DNA of 63,548 nt, filler included, from Pseudomonadota bacterium (GTDB lineage: Bacteria; Desulfobacterota; Desulfobacteria; Desulfobacterales; JBDRRP01): NCBI GenBank assembly GCA_043825735.1. It is 7 parts of 7 records of this genome, joined end to end, with 100 filler letters (N's around TTAATTAATTAA, not from the genome) between each part and the next. Parts side by side here need not be neighbours in the genome. Positions count along the whole stretch, not along the records: positions 53,225 to 58,123 come from JBDRRP010000029.1; 6 more parts are not named here. The stretch is one strand, 5' to 3'. The notes beneath the pieces were generated by a model. It saw only the letters and a program-made list of their open reading frames with translations. It was not told the DNA's origin and made no database searches. The position numbers and the translations under genes are program-made. Below, one piece after another: positions 21,429 through 61,361 of the stretch (positions within the stretch are counted from its first letter, which is position 1; the number at the start of each line of letters is the position of its first letter).

Positions 21429-21528
21429 NNNNNNNNNNNNNNNNNNNNNNNNNNNNNNNNNNNNNNNNNNNNTTAATTAATTAANNNNNNNNNNNNNNNN
21501 NNNNNNNNNNNNNNNNNNNNNNNNNNNN
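21429..21528. other. Artificial contig linker (same at 39432-39531, 46433-46532, 53125-53224, 58124-58223, 61262-61361)
   Basis: N44-TTAATTAATTAA-N44 six-frame stop spacer, identical six times. Confidence 0.99.
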
Positions 21529-39431: not shown

Positions 39432-39531
39432 NNNNNNNNNNNNNNNNNNNNNNNNNNNNNNNNNNNNNNNNNNNNTTAATTAATTAANNNNNNNNNNNNN
39501 NNNNNNNNNNNNNNNNNNNNNNNNNNNNNNN

Positions 39532-46432: not shown

Positions 46433-46532
46433 NNNNNNNNNNNNNNNNNNNNNNNNNNNNNNNNNNNNNNNNNNNNTTAATTAATTAANNNNNNNNNNNN
46501 NNNNNNNNNNNNNNNNNNNNNNNNNNNNNNNN

Positions 46533-53045: not shown

Positions 53046-53288
53046 ACCATTAACCAGAACCGGGGCGGGGGCATTCACCTCCGCCCCGGCCTGAAAGGAG
53101 ATCGAAAATGAATCCAATCACCACNNNNNNNNNNNNNNNNNNNNNNNNNNNNNNNNNNNNNNNNNNNNTTAATTAATTAANNNNNNNNNNNNNNNNNNNN
53201 NNNNNNNNNNNNNNNNNNNNNNNNCTCGGCATAAATTATTCCAAAAGACACAATAGACTGAAAACTGAAATTCCGTGTATTATGCGGA

Positions 53289-53312
53289 TCAATCTAAACA
53301 TTGTTAGATTGA
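53289..53312 (+). other. attI-like recombination site
   Basis: TCAATCTAA-ACATTG-TTAGATTGA dyad containing the GTTRRRY core GTTAGAT (53303-53309). Confidence 0.5.
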
Positions 53313-53324
53313 CCGGAGGACATA

Positions 53325-53834
53325 GTGCGGATAAGGCCTGATTGCGCAAGGCTTCCATGGCTCACTGCAGTAGTTGGAATCGCCGGTTTGACTGCAGGCT
53401 TCTTCCTCCAAAGACCGACTTCATGGTCCTGGGCAGATGCGTGGGCTTTGTACCTTGCTGTTGCCGTCATCTCTGGTTTGCTACTTCTCCTCGCATACCT
53501 TGATTGGCGGTGCCATCGCGAGACGTCCATTGCGTCCATGCCACCCGAGTCAACGATAAGATTGCTGGCCCAGCTCGCCGAAAAAGACGGATGGGTTGGG
53601 TCACCGGCTGAGTTCAACAAGTACGCTTCGTGTTTGCTTTACGGTGTGAGCTTTTCAGAGTTTTTGACGAACCCCACTGACTACTATTCGTCGCTCATGT
53701 CGGGCGGGTTAATCGAAATTGCGAGTGTGATGGACTACGGAAATCGACCAGACGGGACGCCGGATACAACGTTATACGTTATGTTGACACCGAAGGCGCA
53801 AAGGGTGCTTTGTATGGCGCAATCTAACCTATAA
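53325..53834 (+). CDS. Integron-cassette ORF: two TM helices plus soluble C-terminal domain
   Basis: GGAGGA RBS just after GTTAGAT; gene end overlaps the inverse core ATCTAAC. Confidence 0.7.
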   Translation: MRIRPDCARLPWLTAVVGIAGLTAGFFLQRPTSWSWADAWALYLAVAVISGLLLLLAYLDWRCHRETSIASMPPESTIRLLAQLAEKDGWVGSPAEFNKYASCLLYGVSFSEFLTNPTDYYSSLMSGGLIEIASVMDYGNRPDGTPDTTLYVMLTPKAQRVLCMAQSNL

Positions 53835-53878
53835 GGATTGACACGACCTGCAAGGTCGTTTTCAATCTATTGTTCAAG
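53822..53878 (+). other. attC-like site 1 (imperfect, 57 bp)
   Basis: R'' ATCTAAC complements the cassette's own GTTAGAT; stems GATTGA/TCAATC and ACGACC/GGTCGT; ends GTTCAAG. Confidence 0.6.
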
Positions 53879-54146
53879 AAGCCCGGATAGGGCGCACCAT
53901 TTATTAAGGGTAATGATTTAAGAGGTATCAGGGTGGGTTTTGCCGGAGTATAATGTTGCCGGCAAAGAATCAGGGTCGGCCGGTAAAATCGAACCGTTTA
54001 TTTTCAGAATCAGCTAAAAACCGACCGTTCTTTGACAAGTAGAACCGGACAGCGCATCGTTTTGGCAGCCACAGAGCGCAACTATCCTGTGCCGTCGGAT
54101 TATCAGACAGCGGATTGATGAAAGTAAAACAGCCTTAAATCCTCCT

Positions 54147-55247
54147 TTATCCGGGGCCTGCCGGGGCCATCATAAAGGGCAGGACCGAATAGAGGTATTT
54201 GAGCTTGCCGCCGCAATGCGGGCATATTGGCGGTATGTGCGGCGCAAGGGTTGATTCGAGGCAGGTGATTTCAAACCCATAAGCTATTTCTATGAGGGTG
54301 CGGATCTTATTCAACGGAACAGAGGAACAAGGGTGCAAAAAGCCGTAGTAGCGCACCTTCATAAATCCTGTCGGCAGAACGTGCTGTAAGAAGCGTCTTA
54401 GAAATTCCATGGCATCGAGAGACATGGTGCGCCGGCGCCGGCTGCCTTTTTTCTTATACCGAATGAAAACGGTATGATTCTGCACTTTAACGATGCGGTT
54501 GTTTGAGATGGCAACCTTAAACACATAGGGGGCCAGATACCTGACGCTCTGCTCGCTGCTGCCCACGGGTTGGCAGTTTACATTCCAATCGATTTTCCAG
54601 GCTTCGGCTGGAATGGAACTCCAAAGGTCTGTCTTTTTGATTTCATCACGGAATTTGGCCTTGAACATTTTGGACATGGCTCGGATCGGCAGATAAAAAT
54701 CGACGCGCGCGCAATGCCATTTGTTTTGTTCTCTGGACAAAGCGCCGCCCGGGACGATGTAGTGAATATGCGGATGATACTGCAGCTGCCGACCCCAGGT
54801 ATGCAGTACGCCGAAGAAACCTGGAAGATCGCCGCCGATGAACTTTGCATCGGCAGAAAGTTTTTTGAGAGTATCGGCAGAAGCTTTGAACAGGGCCGCA
54901 TAGCAGATGCGCTGGTTGCTGCGGATAAAGCGGCGCAACTGCTCAGGGACGGTAAAAGTGATCATAAAATGATGTCCCGGAAGCTGTCGTTTCATCTGCC
55001 ATTGCAGCCACATTGTTGTTTTATGATTCTGACAGGAGGGACAATGGCGGTTGCCGCAGGATCTGAACACCGAATGGGAGCTGTGACATTTATCACACTG
55101 GTAAATGGCCATGCCGCAGCTTTGGGTGCGGCAGTCGATGATGGCGTTGATGACTTTTCTGTGTTCATTTGGCATGGCATCGCCAAAGCGATGGATATAC
55201 TCTGGTGCGTATTGTGTAAAAATCTGTTGGATGTTATTCATGATCAC
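54147..55247 (-). CDS. IS91-family rolling-circle (HUH Y2) transposase
   Basis: Zn domain SCGNRHCPSC, HPHIH, YLAPY, VRYYG. Confidence 0.95.
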   Translation of the reverse strand: MIMNNIQQIFTQYAPEYIHRFGDAMPNEHRKVINAIIDCRTQSCGMAIYQCDKCHSSHSVFRSCGNRHCPSCQNHKTTMWLQWQMKRQLPGHHFMITFTVPEQLRRFIRSNQRICYAALFKASADTLKKLSADAKFIGGDLPGFFGVLHTWGRQLQYHPHIHYIVPGGALSREQNKWHCARVDFYLPIRAMSKMFKAKFRDEIKKTDLWSSIPAEAWKIDWNVNCQPVGSSEQSVRYLAPYVFKVAISNNRIVKVQNHTVFIRYKKKGSRRRRTMSLDAMEFLRRFLQHVLPTGFMKVRYYGFLHPCSSVPLNKIRTLIEIAYGFEITCLESTLAPHIPPICPHCGGKLKYLYSVLPFMMAPAGPG

Positions 55248-56113
55248 ACCTCCTGCATCAGGCCGTTGATGATGCCGTAGGCGCGTTCATGGCCTTGAGT
55301 GGTCAGGTGCAGATAGACCATGGTGGAGTTGAGGCTGTGATGACCCAGGTATTGTTGGATGCGGCGGATATTGACGCCGGCCTCCAGCAGATGGGTGGCA
55401 TAGCTATGGCGCAGGGTGTGGATGGAGATGCGTTTTTTAAGTTTAAGTTGTTTCAATACCCGGCGCAGGGCGCCTTGAACGGAGGATTTGTTCATTGGGA
55501 TGGTGGCGGCAGGCCCTTCTTTGCCGCTGCGGCCGAGCCGCGGGAAGATCCAGACTGGATTTCGATGCAGCTTCCAGTAAGATCTTAAAATATTGAGGGT
55601 TGTTTCGGGAAGCGGGACATATCGGTCTTTGGCGCCTTTGCCGCGATGGACGTGAATACGCATGCGATCACTGTCGATGTCGCTGACCTGAAGATAAAGA
55701 GCTTCATGCAATCTGAGGCCGCAGGAATAGGTGGTGGTGAGATAGGCTTTGTTTTGAGGGGTGCTGACAGCAGCAAGGATGGAGCGCACTTCATCAAGGC
55801 TCAGGACGGTAGGAAGTCTTTGTTCGCGATTGGCGTGGATCAGCGCCAGGGTATGCCAGTCACGCTGAAGGACATTGAGGAAAAAGAATTTAATACCGCT
55901 GTAGCAGATGCGCATGGTGGCGGCAGACCATTTGTCAGTGTTTCGGCGGTGCAGGAAATAATCCTGAAGCTGCGCTTCGGTGATTTGATCGGGGGGGTTG
56001 TTGTAAAAATCAGCGAGCATGCGAACAGATCGTGTATAGCACTCCTGGGTACGCTGGCTCATCCCGGCAAGTTGCAGGGCTCTCATGGACTTTTGGTAAT
56101 AGTCTTTCATCAT
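55244..56113 (-). CDS. Tyrosine recombinase/integrase
   Basis: GLRLHE, GKGAKDR, HTLRHSYATH, LGH, TMVY; stop overlaps the transposase start; AAGGAG RBS. Confidence 0.95.
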   Translation of the reverse strand: MMKDYYQKSMRALQLAGMSQRTQECYTRSVRMLADFYNNPPDQITEAQLQDYFLHRRNTDKWSAATMRICYSGIKFFFLNVLQRDWHTLALIHANREQRLPTVLSLDEVRSILAAVSTPQNKAYLTTTYSCGLRLHEALYLQVSDIDSDRMRIHVHRGKGAKDRYVPLPETTLNILRSYWKLHRNPVWIFPRLGRSGKEGPAATIPMNKSSVQGALRRVLKQLKLKKRISIHTLRHSYATHLLEAGVNIRRIQQYLGHHSLNSTMVYLHLTTQGHERAYGIINGLMQEV

Positions 56114-56257
56114 AACCTCTCTCCTTTCTTTGAAGGGTTTATTGGATGGGGATCCGATATGAGAGGTATGACAGAAGACTATAAGCTTTTGCAACCTGCC
56201 GCGGATGGGCTTAATTGAAAAAAGGATTGGAAGGTTTTTCTGCCGCGTAGCGGCTTA

Positions 56258-56315
56258 CTTGAACAAGGCAAATGCAGCCGACTCGTGACCGCGCAGCTGA
56301 TTTGCAGCGTTCAAT
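56258..56315 (+). other. attC site 2 (58 bp)
   Basis: R'' CTTGAAC; GCAAAT-G-CAGC pairs with GCTGATTTGC leaving one extrahelical base; R' GTTCAAT. Confidence 0.8.
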
Positions 56316-56394
56316 CCATATTCCTCAATCCCATGTTGTTTCACGGGAAATAAACAGAGCCGATATATTTTACGACGATGTGGATTGTAAATGG

Positions 56395-57771
56395 CTAAAA
56401 TATCTTGTCCGGGTTCATAAGCCACTTGGGGTCAATCATCTCCTTGATCTGGCGCATGAGATGATAGCTCTCACCATGTTCAAGCTGCATGAACTTGCGC
56501 TTGCCGATGCCCACCCCATGCTCACCCGTGCAGGTACCCCCCACTTGAACAGCTTTTTCCACGATGGCATGGTTAATGGCTTCGAGCCTCGACCATTCCA
56601 CTGTATCTGCGGGGTCCCCCACGAGCACCACATGCAGATTGCCGTCGCCTGCGTGTCCGAAAACATAGCCGACGGCGCGGTATTCATCCAAAAGTTTCTG
56701 TGAAAACACTACGATCTCAGGATAGCGGGAGATCGGAACCGCCGCATCGACGATCAGGGTTTGTTTCTTCGGGTGGGCGCGATGGATGGTCTCCCACGCC
56801 TCGTGACGGGCGCGCCACAGATCTTTGCGAGCGCTCTCTTCGGTTGCGAAGTTAAAGCCGACAGCGCCGCAGTCCTCGCACACCTCCCTGGCAAGATCAG
56901 CTGTTTCCTGGAGAACGTTTTTGCTGATTCCGTGAAACTCGCAGAAAAGGGAAGGAGCCTCTGGCAGGCCGAGATGCTTTTCCCGGTTCATCAACTGGAT
57001 CAACCCAGGCGGTAAAAGTTCAAGGGCGGCAGGTCCAAGACCCGATCCGATCATGAGTACTACAGCCCTGGATGCGCTTTCCAGATCCTTGAAACGAATG
57101 GTTGCGGCCAGAAAATGACTGGGAATACCGGTCAGGCGAAGCGTCGCCTCGGTGACGATCCCTATGGTTCCCTCTGATCCCACAAAGAGCCGCGTCAGGT
57201 CATAGCCGGATGAGGATTTTGGCGCCTTGCAGCCGGTGTGAATAATCATGCCCTGGGGCAGCACCACCGTGAGGCGCATGACGTAATCCTTGGTAGCCCC
57301 GTATTTTACGGTCTGGACTCCGGATGCGTTGTTGGCGATCATGCCGCCGATGGTTGCATCGGCCCCCGGATCCGGCGGGAAAAAGAGCCCATGCTTGCCT
57401 GCCTGTCGGTTCAGTTCTTTGCGGAGGACGCCGGGTTCCACATCGGCCTGAAGATCCTGGGGACGGATATTCAGGATGCGGTTCATGAGGGTAAGATCCA
57501 CTACTAGCCCGCCGCGTGTGGGCACCGGATTTCCCTCGGTGCTGGTGCCGGCCCCCCAGGGCGTGACAGGGACATCGTTGGCGTATGTCCACGATAATAT
57601 GCGGGATACCTCATCGGTTGTGAGAGGCCAGATGATTCCGGCGGGAAGCGTTCCCTGATGGAAGGATATATCGTGGCGGTGAAGTTCACGGTTGGACTGC
57701 CCCGTGGAGAACCGTTCCGAAGAAACTATGGCTGACAGATCGGCGATGTGCCGGGGAGTGAACGTGTCCAT
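56395..57771 (-). CDS. FAD-binding oxidoreductase (GlcD/D-lactate dehydrogenase family)
   Basis: PWGAGTS, FPPDPGA.ATIGG, GSEGT.G, GHAGDGNLH, GEHGVG.GK. Confidence 0.93.
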   Translation of the reverse strand: MDTFTPRHIADLSAIVSSERFSTGQSNRELHRHDISFHQGTLPAGIIWPLTTDEVSRILSWTYANDVPVTPWGAGTSTEGNPVPTRGGLVVDLTLMNRILNIRPQDLQADVEPGVLRKELNRQAGKHGLFFPPDPGADATIGGMIANNASGVQTVKYGATKDYVMRLTVVLPQGMIIHTGCKAPKSSSGYDLTRLFVGSEGTIGIVTEATLRLTGIPSHFLAATIRFKDLESASRAVVLMIGSGLGPAALELLPPGLIQLMNREKHLGLPEAPSLFCEFHGISKNVLQETADLAREVCEDCGAVGFNFATEESARKDLWRARHEAWETIHRAHPKKQTLIVDAAVPISRYPEIVVFSQKLLDEYRAVGYVFGHAGDGNLHVVLVGDPADTVEWSRLEAINHAIVEKAVQVGGTCTGEHGVGIGKRKFMQLEHGESYHLMRQIKEMIDPKWLMNPDKIF

Positions 57772-57864
57772 ATTCTCTTATTCCTCGTTTTTGTTATAAT
57801 GCTGGTGTTACTCACATATTTGTTAAACCGGGCGCCGGCGCTGGAATAAATTGCACAGGTTTCA

Positions 57865-58123
57865 TCAGCGATAGATCAACGACGGCAGCCACAGGGTCAG
57901 CGGCGGCCAGAAACATGAGATCAACAGCGCAGCAATAGCTATGGCCACAAAGGGCATCACGGCCCGGCCAACTTGGCCCAGGGGCAGGCCCGACATACCG
58001 CAACTGACAAAAAGGCAGATGCCCAACGGCGGGGTGAGCATGCCTATAGACAGGTTGACCACCATCAGCACGCCGAACTGTACCGGGTCCACCCCCATCT
58101 GGGGCGACAACACGGCCAGCACC
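57865..58123 (-). CDS. TRAP transporter large permease (DctM) C-terminus, 5' truncated
   Basis: GVDPVQFG...NLSIGMLTPPLG. Confidence 0.88.
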
Positions 58124-58223
58124 NNNNNNNNNNNNNNNNNNNNNNNNNNNNNNNNNNNNNNNNNNNNTTAATTAATTAANNNNNNNNNNNNNNNNNNNNN
58201 NNNNNNNNNNNNNNNNNNNNNNN

Positions 58224-60787: not shown

Positions 60788-61361
60788 CATAGGAGTAAAC
60801 AAATGATGGCTTGCCTTTGATATGACTTCCCTTCCGCTTTTTCTTGGACTTTCCTATAAACTTGTACCTGGGAAGGGTGAGGTGTCGGTGGTCAATAGCT
60901 ATACGTGATGTGCTTGTAACTGTAACATGATCAAGACTACAGTGTATTTCTTGTGGAAGTTTCATTGTCATCCTCTTTGATAGGGTTAGTTTTGACTACT
61001 TGATGTTGTCCATAAGGACAGTATGGAATTGTAATTCATCATCATTCATAAATAGGATAGTTCGCATTATTTATGTGGGGAATGACATATGTTATGACAA
61101 TACCGCTCCGACATACCCTGGAGGGGTTAACATCACTACAAAGAACTCCTGGGGCTCATTTTATGCAGGCAAACCGCGGCGGCACCATTGCCAAAACATG
61201 TTTTTGGCTGCGTATCGTTTCTTGACGGCATCGTGTAGCGGAGAAATCAAGAAGGTGGAAGNNNNNNNNNNNNNNNNNNNNNNNNNNNNNNNNNNNNNNN
61301 NNNNNTTAATTAATTAANNNNNNNNNNNNNNNNNNNNNNNNNNNNNNNNNNNNNNNNNNNN

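What the first reader, a model, noticed from the sequence alone, without database searches (positions are those of the whole stretch)
53872..56315. IS91 HUH transposase plus tyrosine recombinase unit built as an integron gene cassette with its own attC
Seen: the unit starts at the GTT core of attC-1 (GTTCAAG, 53872). Its other end, CTTGAAC (56258), is the perfect reverse complement of that core and is also the R'' box of a well-formed 58-bp attC with one extrahelical base. Excision at the two GTT points would give a circle with a 7/7 paired R''/R', as for a true cassette. Removing only the IS would leave two attC sites back to back with no gene between them, so attC-2 probably travels with the element. 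Established: an IS91 subgroup carries a tyrosine-recombinase ORF; IS91 enzymes use GTTC/CTTG sites and make ssDNA circles; attC recombines as a folded single strand. Inference: this is a self-mobilising cassette in which rolling-circle ssDNA exposes the attC hairpin and the encoded recombinase (or a host IntI) inserts it into arrays. The recombinase lacks the IntI-specific insertion, so attC use by it would be new. I cannot confirm that the link is undescribed.
Basis: partly seen in the sequence, partly recalled or inferred. Interest (0 to 1): 0.85.

Follow-up and report, generated by a model that had tools for sequence, protein, structure and literature searches.

The report
IS91 transposon lodged in integron attC
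A 2.4-kb jumping gene that carries a rolling-circle transposase and an integron-integrase-like recombinase sits backwards at one exact spot inside the hairpin recombination site of an integron gene cassette, and its own end hairpin imitates such a site.

Summary
The mobile unit is 2,436 bp (53829-56264; a shared AAC leaves 3 nt of ambiguity). It holds an intact IS91-family transposase gene and an IntI-like tyrosine recombinase gene. A public DNA contig joins 53825 directly to 56262: this is the empty site.

The unit lies between the first box (R'', ATCTAAC) and the body of the attC of the left-hand cassette (ORF 53325-53834). Its genes run antisense to the array.

- The body of attC-2 (56265-56315) belongs to the host cassette and does not travel with it.
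- GTTCAAG and CTTGAAC are the element's own terminal inverted boxes.
- attC-2 matches a home-made attC covariance model (14.4 bits, E 0.025 within the contig). The element's own hairpin matches it nowhere.
- Relatives sit at the same spot and in the same orientation in attCs: 4 of 6 contexts in the window's clade, 9 of 29 family-wide. Others sit at plain AAC sites, some in genomes where no IntI was found.

So this is an attC-homing IS91 element, not a cassette moved at G|TT. Which enzyme inserts it is not settled. This scan has reported the same kind of element before on other DNA (14 notes, at least 12 genomes).

The parts
53303..53309 (+). GTTAGAT box at the start of the host cassette X. It is the complement of the ATCTAAC box at the cassette's end. 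It lies in a short inverted repeat (53290-53309) behind AT-rich DNA.
   Evidence: It is the only exact 7-mer match in the 600 nt to the left of the element.
53325..53834 (+). ORF of host cassette X: 169 aa, GTG start 5 nt behind GGAGGA, no family match. Its last two sense codons and its stop codon now come from the element.
53822..53828 (+). ATCTAAC, the first box (R'') of cassette X's attC. The element is inserted directly behind it or within its AAC.
   Evidence: Empty-site contig; borders; box pairing.
53829..56264 (-). The mobile unit, 2,436 bp. 53826-56261 is equally possible because AAC is shared. It is an IS91-family element with a recombinase gene.
   Evidence: the joint 53825 to 56262 skips 2436 with 3 nt ambiguous; contig L020 is 99.9% identical and spans exactly 56264..53826. 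One search also shows borders at 53824-53826 in 11 loci.
53829..53878 (-). With the CTTGAAC of the other end it would close a 57-nt attC-shaped hairpin in a circle.
   Evidence: Folds. 93-97% identity in loci whose element bodies are 67-75% identical. The same layout is kept in relatives of 47-50% identity. No attC-model match.
54147..55247 (-). IS91-family transposase gene, 366 aa. It has a zinc ribbon, HPHIH and YLAPY, and no stop codon inside.
55244..56113 (-). Tyrosine recombinase gene, 289 aa, IntI/XerA-like, without the IntI insertion. The residues R, K, HxxR, H and Y are present.
56238..56264 (-). Conserved ter end of the element. On the minus strand it begins GTTCAAGTAAGCC and holds a short GC hairpin.
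   Evidence: the conserved stretch starts at the G of GTTCAAG in about 20 loci.
56265..56315 (+). Body and R' box (GTTCAAT) of cassette X's attC, cut off from its first box by the element.
   Evidence: contiguous with 53825 in the empty site; R3, 14.4 bits, E 0.025, + strand; fold.
56395..57771 (-). GlcD-like FAD oxidase gene, a neighbour to the right of the array and not part of the element.

Best explanation
The feature is one copy of an IS91-family rolling-circle insertion sequence of the subgroup that also encodes an IntI-like tyrosine recombinase. It has inserted, without target duplication, at the AAC of the first box (R'') of an integron cassette's attC, with its genes antisense to the cassette array.

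Its ter end supplies a new first box (CTTGAAC) to the displaced attC body. Its ori end supplies a hairpin plus a GTTCAAG box to the cassette on its left. As a result two attC-shaped sites flank it. This anatomy is shown.

Inferred mechanism:
1. The HUH/Y2 transposase nicks at the ori end and peels off the strand antisense to its own gene.
2. Joining the two ends closes an attC-shaped hairpin with a 7-bp outer stem.
3. This single-stranded circle is integrated at AA|C of a folded top strand of an attC. That is the position in the hairpin that IntI cuts, but on the opposite strand.

I put about even odds on the strand exchange being done by the element's own recombinase or by the transposase alone, whose family is known for a GTTC/CTTG target next to the ori end. 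Host IntI is not needed.
For: Borders:
- The empty-site contig in run X3 joins 53825 to 56262 and skips 2436 nt.
- L020 is a 2438-nt contig, 99.9% identical, spanning exactly 56264..53826.
- Homology ends at 53824-53826 in 11 loci and begins at or within 3 nt of 56264 in about 20 loci.
- Loose ends at the same places lead into other flanks in runs X3, X5 and X7.

Target and orientation:
- Model R3 was built from 9 attCs of 5 arrays, none next to an element. It hits the site abutting the ter box in 7 of 13 metagenome contexts and 2 of 16 genome contexts.
- In the window's clade it hits 4 of 6 contexts.
- All 9 hits are on the strand antisense to the transposase gene.
- A true intI within 3 kb runs in the same direction as the transposase gene in L064 and in G146:C94. 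That is the direction expected for an array read away from intI.

Cassette context:
- Boxes complementary to the left junction box stand one cassette upstream in the window, L026, L024 and L040.
- The arrays continue to the right with matching boxes in L026, L024 and L022.

Self-mobility:
- G265 is a single contig with no IntI at E<=1e-70 and has 2 copies in different places.
- G020 has no IntI found, yet holds a copy in an attC whose rebuilt empty site folds at -24.2 kcal/mol.
- L022, L023 and L024 have identical elements (0 differences in 2459 nt) and the same right flank, but three different left flanks. This is the pattern expected of one-ended rolling-circle events.

Intact genes.
Against: - No circle junction was seen. 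Only assembled contigs could be laid, and they cannot show one.
- No experiment bears on which enzyme acts.
- The attC link is not universal. R3 finds no attC at 20 of 29 ter-side flanks, and the two G265 copies and L071 sit at AAC sites that do not look like attCs.
- R3 is a small home-made model. Its misses and its modest score for attC-2 (14.4 bits) are hard to calibrate.
- The element's hairpin fails the attC model, which weakens 'attC mimic' to a likeness of shape.
- The matching-box test failed in L027. The adjacent attC ends GTTCGGT while the junction box is GCCTAAC, so the 7-mer match I first counted there is probably chance.
Confidence: 0.8

Rival explanations
1. One reading: a self-mobilising integron cassette that runs from G|TT at 53872 to G|TT at 56309, carries attC-2 as its own attC, and is moved by IntI-type crossovers in R' boxes.
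For: The stretch 53873-56309 has the formal layout of a cassette. The boxes at its two ends pair 7/7, and attC-2 matches the attC model.
Against: The empty site removes 53826/9-56261/4, not 53873-56309. The left hairpin is conserved with the element in more than 10 contexts, while the attC-2 body differs in every context. No locus or loose end breaks at 53872 or at 56309 (29 further loose ends were not shown).
Confidence: 0.03
2. An ordinary IS91 insertion at a generic GTTC/CTTG-type site that happens to lie in an attC. The hairpin is merely the family's ori structure, with no link to integrons.
For: IS91-family rule (recalled): no duplication, and a target tetranucleotide beside the ori end. 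Some relatives sit at non-attC AAC sites. The hairpin is also present in clades whose flanks are not attC-like.
Against: attCs are a tiny share of any genome. Yet 9 of 29 ter-side flanks score as attC, always at the same box and in the same orientation. The fourth base after GTT is mostly not C. Genomes with a transposase hit more often hold IntI: 17 of 28 against 123 of 373 (related genomes are not independent).
Confidence: 0.07
3. A true cassette in reverse: host IntI integrated the element's circle through its hairpin by an off-pathway reaction with the top strand of the host attC, and the IS91 genes are only passengers.
For: On the element's own strand the layout is that of a cassette, and the crossover falls at G|TT behind its hairpin. 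The window's genome has two true IntI genes, and a true IntI lies 1.5-2.6 kb from relatives.
Against: The hairpin matches no attC model on either strand, and in several relatives it is a perfect stem without bulged bases. Copies occur in genomes where no IntI was found, and one of these has two copies. The same orientation in 9 of 9 cases would need the rare strand choice every time. The identical right flank with three different left flanks fits a rolling-circle element better.
Confidence: 0.08

Closest known systems
Canonical IS91 family (IS91, IS801, IS1294; ISCR relatives)
   Same: - Y2/HUH transposase with an N-terminal zinc ribbon (NF033538, 374.8 bits; Pfam Y2_Tnp and Zn_Tnp_IS91).
- No target duplication.
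- Distinct ori and ter ends with a short inverted repeat.
- A fixed short target word next to the ori end.
- A pattern like one-ended transposition.
   Different: - It carries a second gene for an IntI-like recombinase.
- The ori end extends about 50 nt beyond the inverted-repeat box into a conserved hairpin.
- The target word is GTT plus any base, rather than GTTC/CTTG.
- It shows a strong preference, in one orientation, for the first box of attC sites.
- The best plasmid-borne IS91 transposases are only 35-41% identical.
IS91-family members that ISfinder lists with an upstream integrase ORF (names recalled: ISAzo26, ISSod25, ISSde12, ISShvi3 and others)
   Same: The same gene pair in the same order. 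[quoted passage not shown]
   Different: In the papers I could search I found no statement of the target rule (first box, fixed orientation, attC-shaped joined ends). ISfinder and TnPedia are not in the library, so I cannot exclude that it is written there. I did not compare sequences with these named elements.
IS1111-attC group (IS110 family) and group IIC-attC introns
   Same: These are parasites of integron arrays that insert near the 5' end of attC sites and antisense to cassette transcription (PMC3001079, passages read). That is the same place and orientation as here.
   Different: The machinery is unrelated (a DEDD transposase with a guide RNA; a ribozyme with reverse transcriptase). Neither brings an attC-shaped end nor rebuilds two attC-like sites.
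Integron gene cassettes and IntI
   Same: - A folded site with complementary outer boxes.
- A crossover at the AAC/GTT triplet.
- A recombinase whose nearest solved relative is IntI4 (2a3v, 112 bits) and whose best NCBIfam match is the integron-integrase model.
   Different: - The crossover is in R'' of the host site, not R'.
- The element's hairpin fails the attC models.
- The recombinase scores 179 bits against a cut-off of 265 and lacks the insertion.
- The unit also occurs in genomes where no IntI was found.
ISCR28 next to attC sites in sul4 modules
   Same: [quoted passage not shown] Its authors discuss passive shuffling as a cassette (PMC12772301, passages read).
   Different: ISCR elements have no recombinase gene. 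The authors give their data as 'not shown', and I made no sequence comparison.

Membership tests
IS91 family insertion sequence | Transposase of the Y2/HUH type with a zinc-binding N-terminus | tested here: met
   NF033538 scores 374.8 bits (cut-off 125). PF04986 scores 193.7 bits and PF14319 95.1 bits. HPHIH and YLAPY are present in the translation; that these are the catalytic motifs is recalled.
IS91 family insertion sequence | Insertion without target-site duplication | tested here: met
   Comparison of the empty-site contig with the occupied site shows only a shared AAC, present once in the empty form.
IS91 family insertion sequence | Target tetranucleotide GTTC or CTTG abutting the ori end | tested here: inconclusive
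   GTT follows the ori end in 26 of 28 contexts, but the fourth base varies (A in the window). A CTTG does lie inside the element, at the start of its own box.
IS91 family insertion sequence | Rolling-circle transposition from ori to ter, with one-ended events | not testable with these tools
   The only sign is indirect: identical elements and right flank with three different left flanks.
Integron gene cassette | The mobile unit is bounded by G|TT crossovers in R' boxes on the array's top strand | tested here: not met
   The borders lie at the AAC of R'' boxes on the top strand. Array polarity comes from the strand of the model hits (9 of 9), the direction of cassette ORFs and the direction of intI.
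Integron gene cassette | Carries its own attC, which moves with it | tested here: not met
   The body of attC-2 stays in the empty site and differs between copies. The hairpin that does move with the element matches neither R2 nor R3: 4.8 bits at best, and no hit at E<=10.
Integron attC site (for 56258-56315) | Matches an attC covariance model in the array's orientation | tested here: met
   R3 gives 14.4 bits, E 0.025 within the contig, over the full model length, on the + strand. R2 gives 10.9 bits. Both models are home-made; the IntegronFinder model was not available.
Integron integrase (IntI) | Score over the family cut-off and presence of the IntI-specific insertion | tested here: not met
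   TIGR02249 scores 179.1 bits against a cut-off of 265, in two stretches that skip model positions 181-230. About 31-34 residues are missing compared with the genome's own IntI and with 2a3v.
attC-targeting mobile elements (a functional class, not a homology family) | Repeated independent insertions at one position and in one orientation in attC sites | tested here: met
   9 of 29 ter-side flanks are attC by R3, all on the antisense strand and all abutting the ter box. There is an empty site for the window's copy and a clean rebuilt attC for L073.

The most novel reading that the evidence does not exclude
The element runs a mirror image of integron recombination. Its IntI-like recombinase lacks the insertion that, as I recall, reads the bulged bases of attC. 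It would recombine a rolling-circle single-stranded circle, through the element's own bulge-poor attC-shaped hairpin, with the folded top strand of host attC sites at AA|C of the first box. That would be a second, strand-inverted attC recombination system, encoded by a transposon, and a possible relative or source of the IntI/attC pair. Each insertion also hands a new hairpin to the neighbouring cassette.
Probability: 0.3. Interest if true: 0.85.

Novelty: new variant of a known kind. Interest (0 to 1): 0.6.

Why it matters
Integron arrays are known to be invaded at attC by two unrelated kinds of parasite: IS1111-attC elements and group IIC-attC introns. This would be a third kind, and the only one that brings an IntI-like recombinase and an attC-shaped site of its own.

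- Annotation. Such insertions split an attC into two attC-shaped sites. Cassette callers would then report a false 'transposase cassette' and assign the wrong attC to the neighbouring gene.
- Mechanism. The element pairs a single-strand-producing HUH enzyme with a recombinase from the branch that acts on folded single strands. This makes the question of what the extra recombinase does in this IS91 subgroup directly testable.
- Spread. Words of this very copy occur in 20 public runs from 13 studies of groundwater, rock, sediment and soil. The four runs that were laid hold it at 90% likeness or more.

Tried and rejected
- Repeat search for cassette arrays beside the genome's two intI genes gave nothing usable. 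A first hairpin scan with strict thresholds missed even the element's own hairpin.
- My first model, that the array runs in the direction of the transposase gene and that attC-2 belongs to the FAD oxidase gene, was dropped. The evidence against it was the strand of the model hits, the direction of cassette ORFs, the direction of intI and the empty site.
- I first used the 411-aa ORF between intI and the element in L064 as a 'first cassette' to set polarity. It is another IS91 transposase gene, so that argument was dropped.
- Matching of boxes across a cassette cannot set polarity, because it reads the same on both strands. I use it only to show that the junction box belongs to the left cassette.
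- MAFFT alignments of attCs and of the element hairpins across clades were not structurally consistent. I therefore ran no formal covariation count, and the claim that the hairpin is kept rests on single folds.
- No match to the ori block in plasmids or in complete E. coli genomes. No close transposase on plasmids.
- Rfam holds no attC family; the window gave only rRNA, 6S RNA and a tRNA.
- No overlap of contig C29's ends with other contigs of the genome, so I could not link it to either intI.
- Laid contigs showed no joint from 56264 back to 53829. Contigs cannot show a circle.
- Literature hits for 'IS91' in PMC11023631 and PMC5001619 were IS911. PMC3332091 concerns an IS91 isoform unrelated to attC. 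PMC7923331 and PMC8876359 mention IS91 and ISCR only in general terms.
Full report
**Setting**

The window is not one stretch of genome. It is seven contigs of one 6.8-Mb assembly joined by runs of N. The finding lies on contig C29, which is 4,899 bp long (window 53225-58123). Genes to the left of 53225 are therefore not neighbours. The element occurs once in the assembly. The assembly holds two true integron integrase genes on other contigs: TIGR02249 at 415.9 and 393.8 bits, cut-off 265.

**The observation**

- GTTCAAG (53872-53878) and CTTGAAC (56258-56264) are present and are exact reverse complements.
- On the minus strand between them lie two genes.
  - A 366-aa IS91-family transposase gene (NF033538, 374.8 bits; Y2_Tnp and Zn_Tnp_IS91). 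Its translation shows HPHIH and YLAPY.
  - A 289-aa tyrosine recombinase gene, with all the usual catalytic residues in the translation.
- The recombinase's best family match is the integron-integrase model, at 179 bits, below the cut-off of 265. The match is in two pieces that skip model positions 181-230.
- Its nearest solved relative is IntI4 of Vibrio cholerae (2a3v, 112 bits in two stretches).
- Against this genome's own IntI it is 31% identical and lacks 24 plus 7 residues at the same place.
- 56258-56315 folds as described.

**Borders**

I collected relatives from one species-representative genome set, from metagenome contigs and from 400 genomes of the same phylum.

- blastn shows that similarity to the window ends at 53824-53826 in 11 loci.
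- L020, a 2,438-nt metagenome contig that is 99.9% identical, spans exactly 56264 to 53826.
- A 25-27-nt ter end, beginning at or within 3 nt of the G of GTTCAAG on the minus strand (window 56264), is kept in about 20 loci, down to 47% transposase identity.
- The roughly 60 nt at the other end (53824-53886), which include the hairpin to the left of GTTCAAG, are 93-97% identical in loci whose element bodies are only 67-75% identical.
- Beyond these two points every locus differs.

The decisive result came from public reads. In run X3 a contig runs from 53700 to 53825 and continues at 56262-56301, skipping 2,436 nt with 3 nt of ambiguity. In the same run the element itself stands as a separate contig at higher depth. 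This is the empty site.

- The element is therefore 53829-56264, or 53826-56261.
- It made no duplication.
- The cassette on its left owns the 56265-56315 body.
- Contigs in runs X3, X5 and X7 leave the window at 53824-53826 and at 56262-56265 into other flanks.
- Nothing breaks at 53872 or 56309 in any locus or in the loose ends listed (29 further loose ends were not shown).

**What the flanks are**

I needed an attC model and Rfam has none, so I built one.

- The seed was an array beside a true, divergently transcribed intI in another genome (L065). There, boxes on either side of each cassette are complementary.
- Model R3 rests on 9 attCs from 5 arrays, none of them next to an element.
- With filters off, R3 hits the site that abuts the element's ter box in 7 of 13 distinct metagenome contexts that have at least 60 nt of flank: the window, L022/23/24, L026, L027, L034, L038 and L040.
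- It hits 2 of 16 genome contexts: L073 and L084.
- In the window's own clade it hits 4 of 6 contexts.
- All 9 hits lie on the strand antisense to the transposase gene.
- Every other array site hit with E<1 in the loci also scores best on that strand; two further hits, L083 and L089, run the other way.
- The element's own hairpin is not hit in any locus at E<=5, nor in C29 at E<=10. The narrower model R2 gives it 4.8 bits on the minus strand.

The array's direction is supported by three further observations.

- Cassette ORFs on the left of the element read in the array's direction. In the window this is a 169-aa ORF with a GTG start behind GGAGGA.
- A true intI lies 1.5 kb and 2.6 kb from relatives and runs in the same direction as the transposase gene.
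- The box at the left junction is the complement of the box one cassette further left: ATCTAAC and GTTAGAT in the window, and likewise in L026, L024 and L040.

In L027 this box test fails and my first count there was a chance match. In four loci the flank is too short.

**Anatomy in one sentence**

On the array's top strand the order is:

1. cassette X;
2. its first box, ATCTAAC;
3. the element: hairpin, GTTCAAG, ori side, transposase gene and recombinase gene in reverse, ter side, CTTGAAC;
4. the body and last box of cassette X's attC.

The insertion thus turns one attC into two attC-shaped sites.

Read on the element's own strand, the unit has the cassette layout: genes, hairpin, then G|TT. 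Relative to the host array, however, the crossover is in the first box, on the strand that IntI does not use.

**Family view**

- Relatives down to 47-50% identity keep the same ends: a GGCTT-CTTGAAC box, 3-5 nt, a hairpin whose stem letters differ but still pair, 6-9 nt, then GTT. 11 of 12 such stretches folded singly showed the hairpin; the L030 stretch was cut short. Several are perfect stems without bulges.
- GTT follows the ori end in 26 of 28 contexts.
- Not all targets are attCs.
  - The two copies in G265 lie at AAC sites that do not fold like attCs. G265 is a single-contig genome where no IntI was found at E<=1e-70.
  - L071 likewise lies at an AAC site that does not fold like an attC.
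  - The copy in G020, also without a detected IntI, lies in an attC whose rebuilt empty form folds at -24.2 kcal/mol with fully paired outer boxes.
- In the phylum sample, 17 of 28 genomes with a transposase hit (E<=1e-60) hold IntI, against 123 of 373 of the rest. Relatedness inflates this contrast, and the hit set includes distant IS91 members.
- L022, L023 and L024 carry identical elements (0 differences in 2,459 nt) and the same right flank (1 mismatch in 1,100 nt), but three different left flanks. One of these lacks the AA. This is what read-through past the ter end, or ori-side rearrangement, would give.

**Mechanism**

Shown:
- the borders;
- the lack of duplication;
- the target position and orientation;
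- intact genes;
- independence from a resident IntI in at least some genomes.

Inferred: IS91 enzymes are held to displace a single strand from ori to ter (recalled literature). Here that would be the strand antisense to the transposase gene, which is the array's top strand. Its joined ends fold into a 57-nt hairpin with a 7-bp outer stem. Both partners, the circle and the host attC's top strand, would then be cut at AA|C in the 5' arm. That is the position IntI cuts, but on the bottom strand.

Two readings remain.

- For the recombinase as the integrating enzyme: it is IntI-like, it lacks the insertion, and the element hairpins have few or no bulges.
- For the transposase acting alone: the family's known habit of a GTTC-type word beside the ori end, and the one-ended pattern.

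I hold the two about even.

**Literature**

- I searched full text for IS91 with attC and tyrosine recombinase, for the ISfinder names, for IS91 with cassette terms, for IS91 with integrase and R box, and for IS1111-attC.
- The nearest statements, read as passages only, are these.
[quoted passage not shown] - IS1111-attC elements and group IIC-attC introns insert near the 5' end of attCs and antisense to the array (PMC3001079).
- I found no statement of the rule described here. ISfinder, TnPedia and subscription journals are outside the library, and I opened no supplements.
- This scan has noted the same kind of element before on other DNA: 14 notes in at least 12 genomes. Those notes agree with my reading and are not independent evidence.

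**Verdict**

The feature is real and its anatomy is resolved. It is an attC-homing IS91 element with an IntI-like recombinase, not a cassette that carries attC-2. It is a new variant of a known kind. Its interest is moderate to high because of the untested recombinase step.

Noticed in passing
window 21429-21528, 39432-39531, 46433-46532, 53125-53224, 58124-58223, 61262-61361: The window is seven contigs of one assembly joined by pairs of N runs. Gene neighbourhoods across these points are not real.
   Followed up: yes
L064 16104-17445 (G001:C24): A second IS91-family transposase gene (411 aa, 35% identical to the window's) with no recombinase gene beside it lies tail to tail between a true intI and the relative of the window's element. 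An 11-nt copy of the ter-end start stands 46 nt before it.
   Followed up: partly
L040, reverse strand, positions 311-376 and 1298-1960 counted from that end: A decayed ori-end hairpin of a window-type element sits behind a GCATAAC box. One cassette further on, an intact element of another clade sits in the next attC, and the boxes on either side of that cassette match 7/7.
   Followed up: partly
L010 19731-19789 (G000:C139, 520 nt behind the stop of intI, same strand): A good attC (R2, 32.6 bits) lies downstream of this genome's intI and in the same direction, just before the contig ends. This arrangement differs from the usual divergent one.
   Followed up: no
window 53290-53309: Cassette X begins behind a short inverted repeat (ATCTAA, 6 nt, TTAGAT) preceded by AT-rich DNA, not behind a full attC. 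It could be an attI-type site or a remnant. L024 shows a similar short repeat at the same place.
   Followed up: no
L022, L023, L024: Three metagenome contigs hold identical elements and the same right flank but three different left flanks. One of the left flanks lacks the AA of the target triplet.
   Followed up: partly
L074 and L096 (G265), L073 (G020): Relatives occur in genomes where no IntI was found at E<=1e-70. Two copies lie at AAC sites that are not attC-like, and one lies in a clean attC, which suggests an array without an integrase.
   Followed up: partly
phylum sample of 401 genomes: Integron integrase scores over the family cut-off in 137 of 401 genomes of this phylum sample, so integrons are common in the group.
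   Followed up: no
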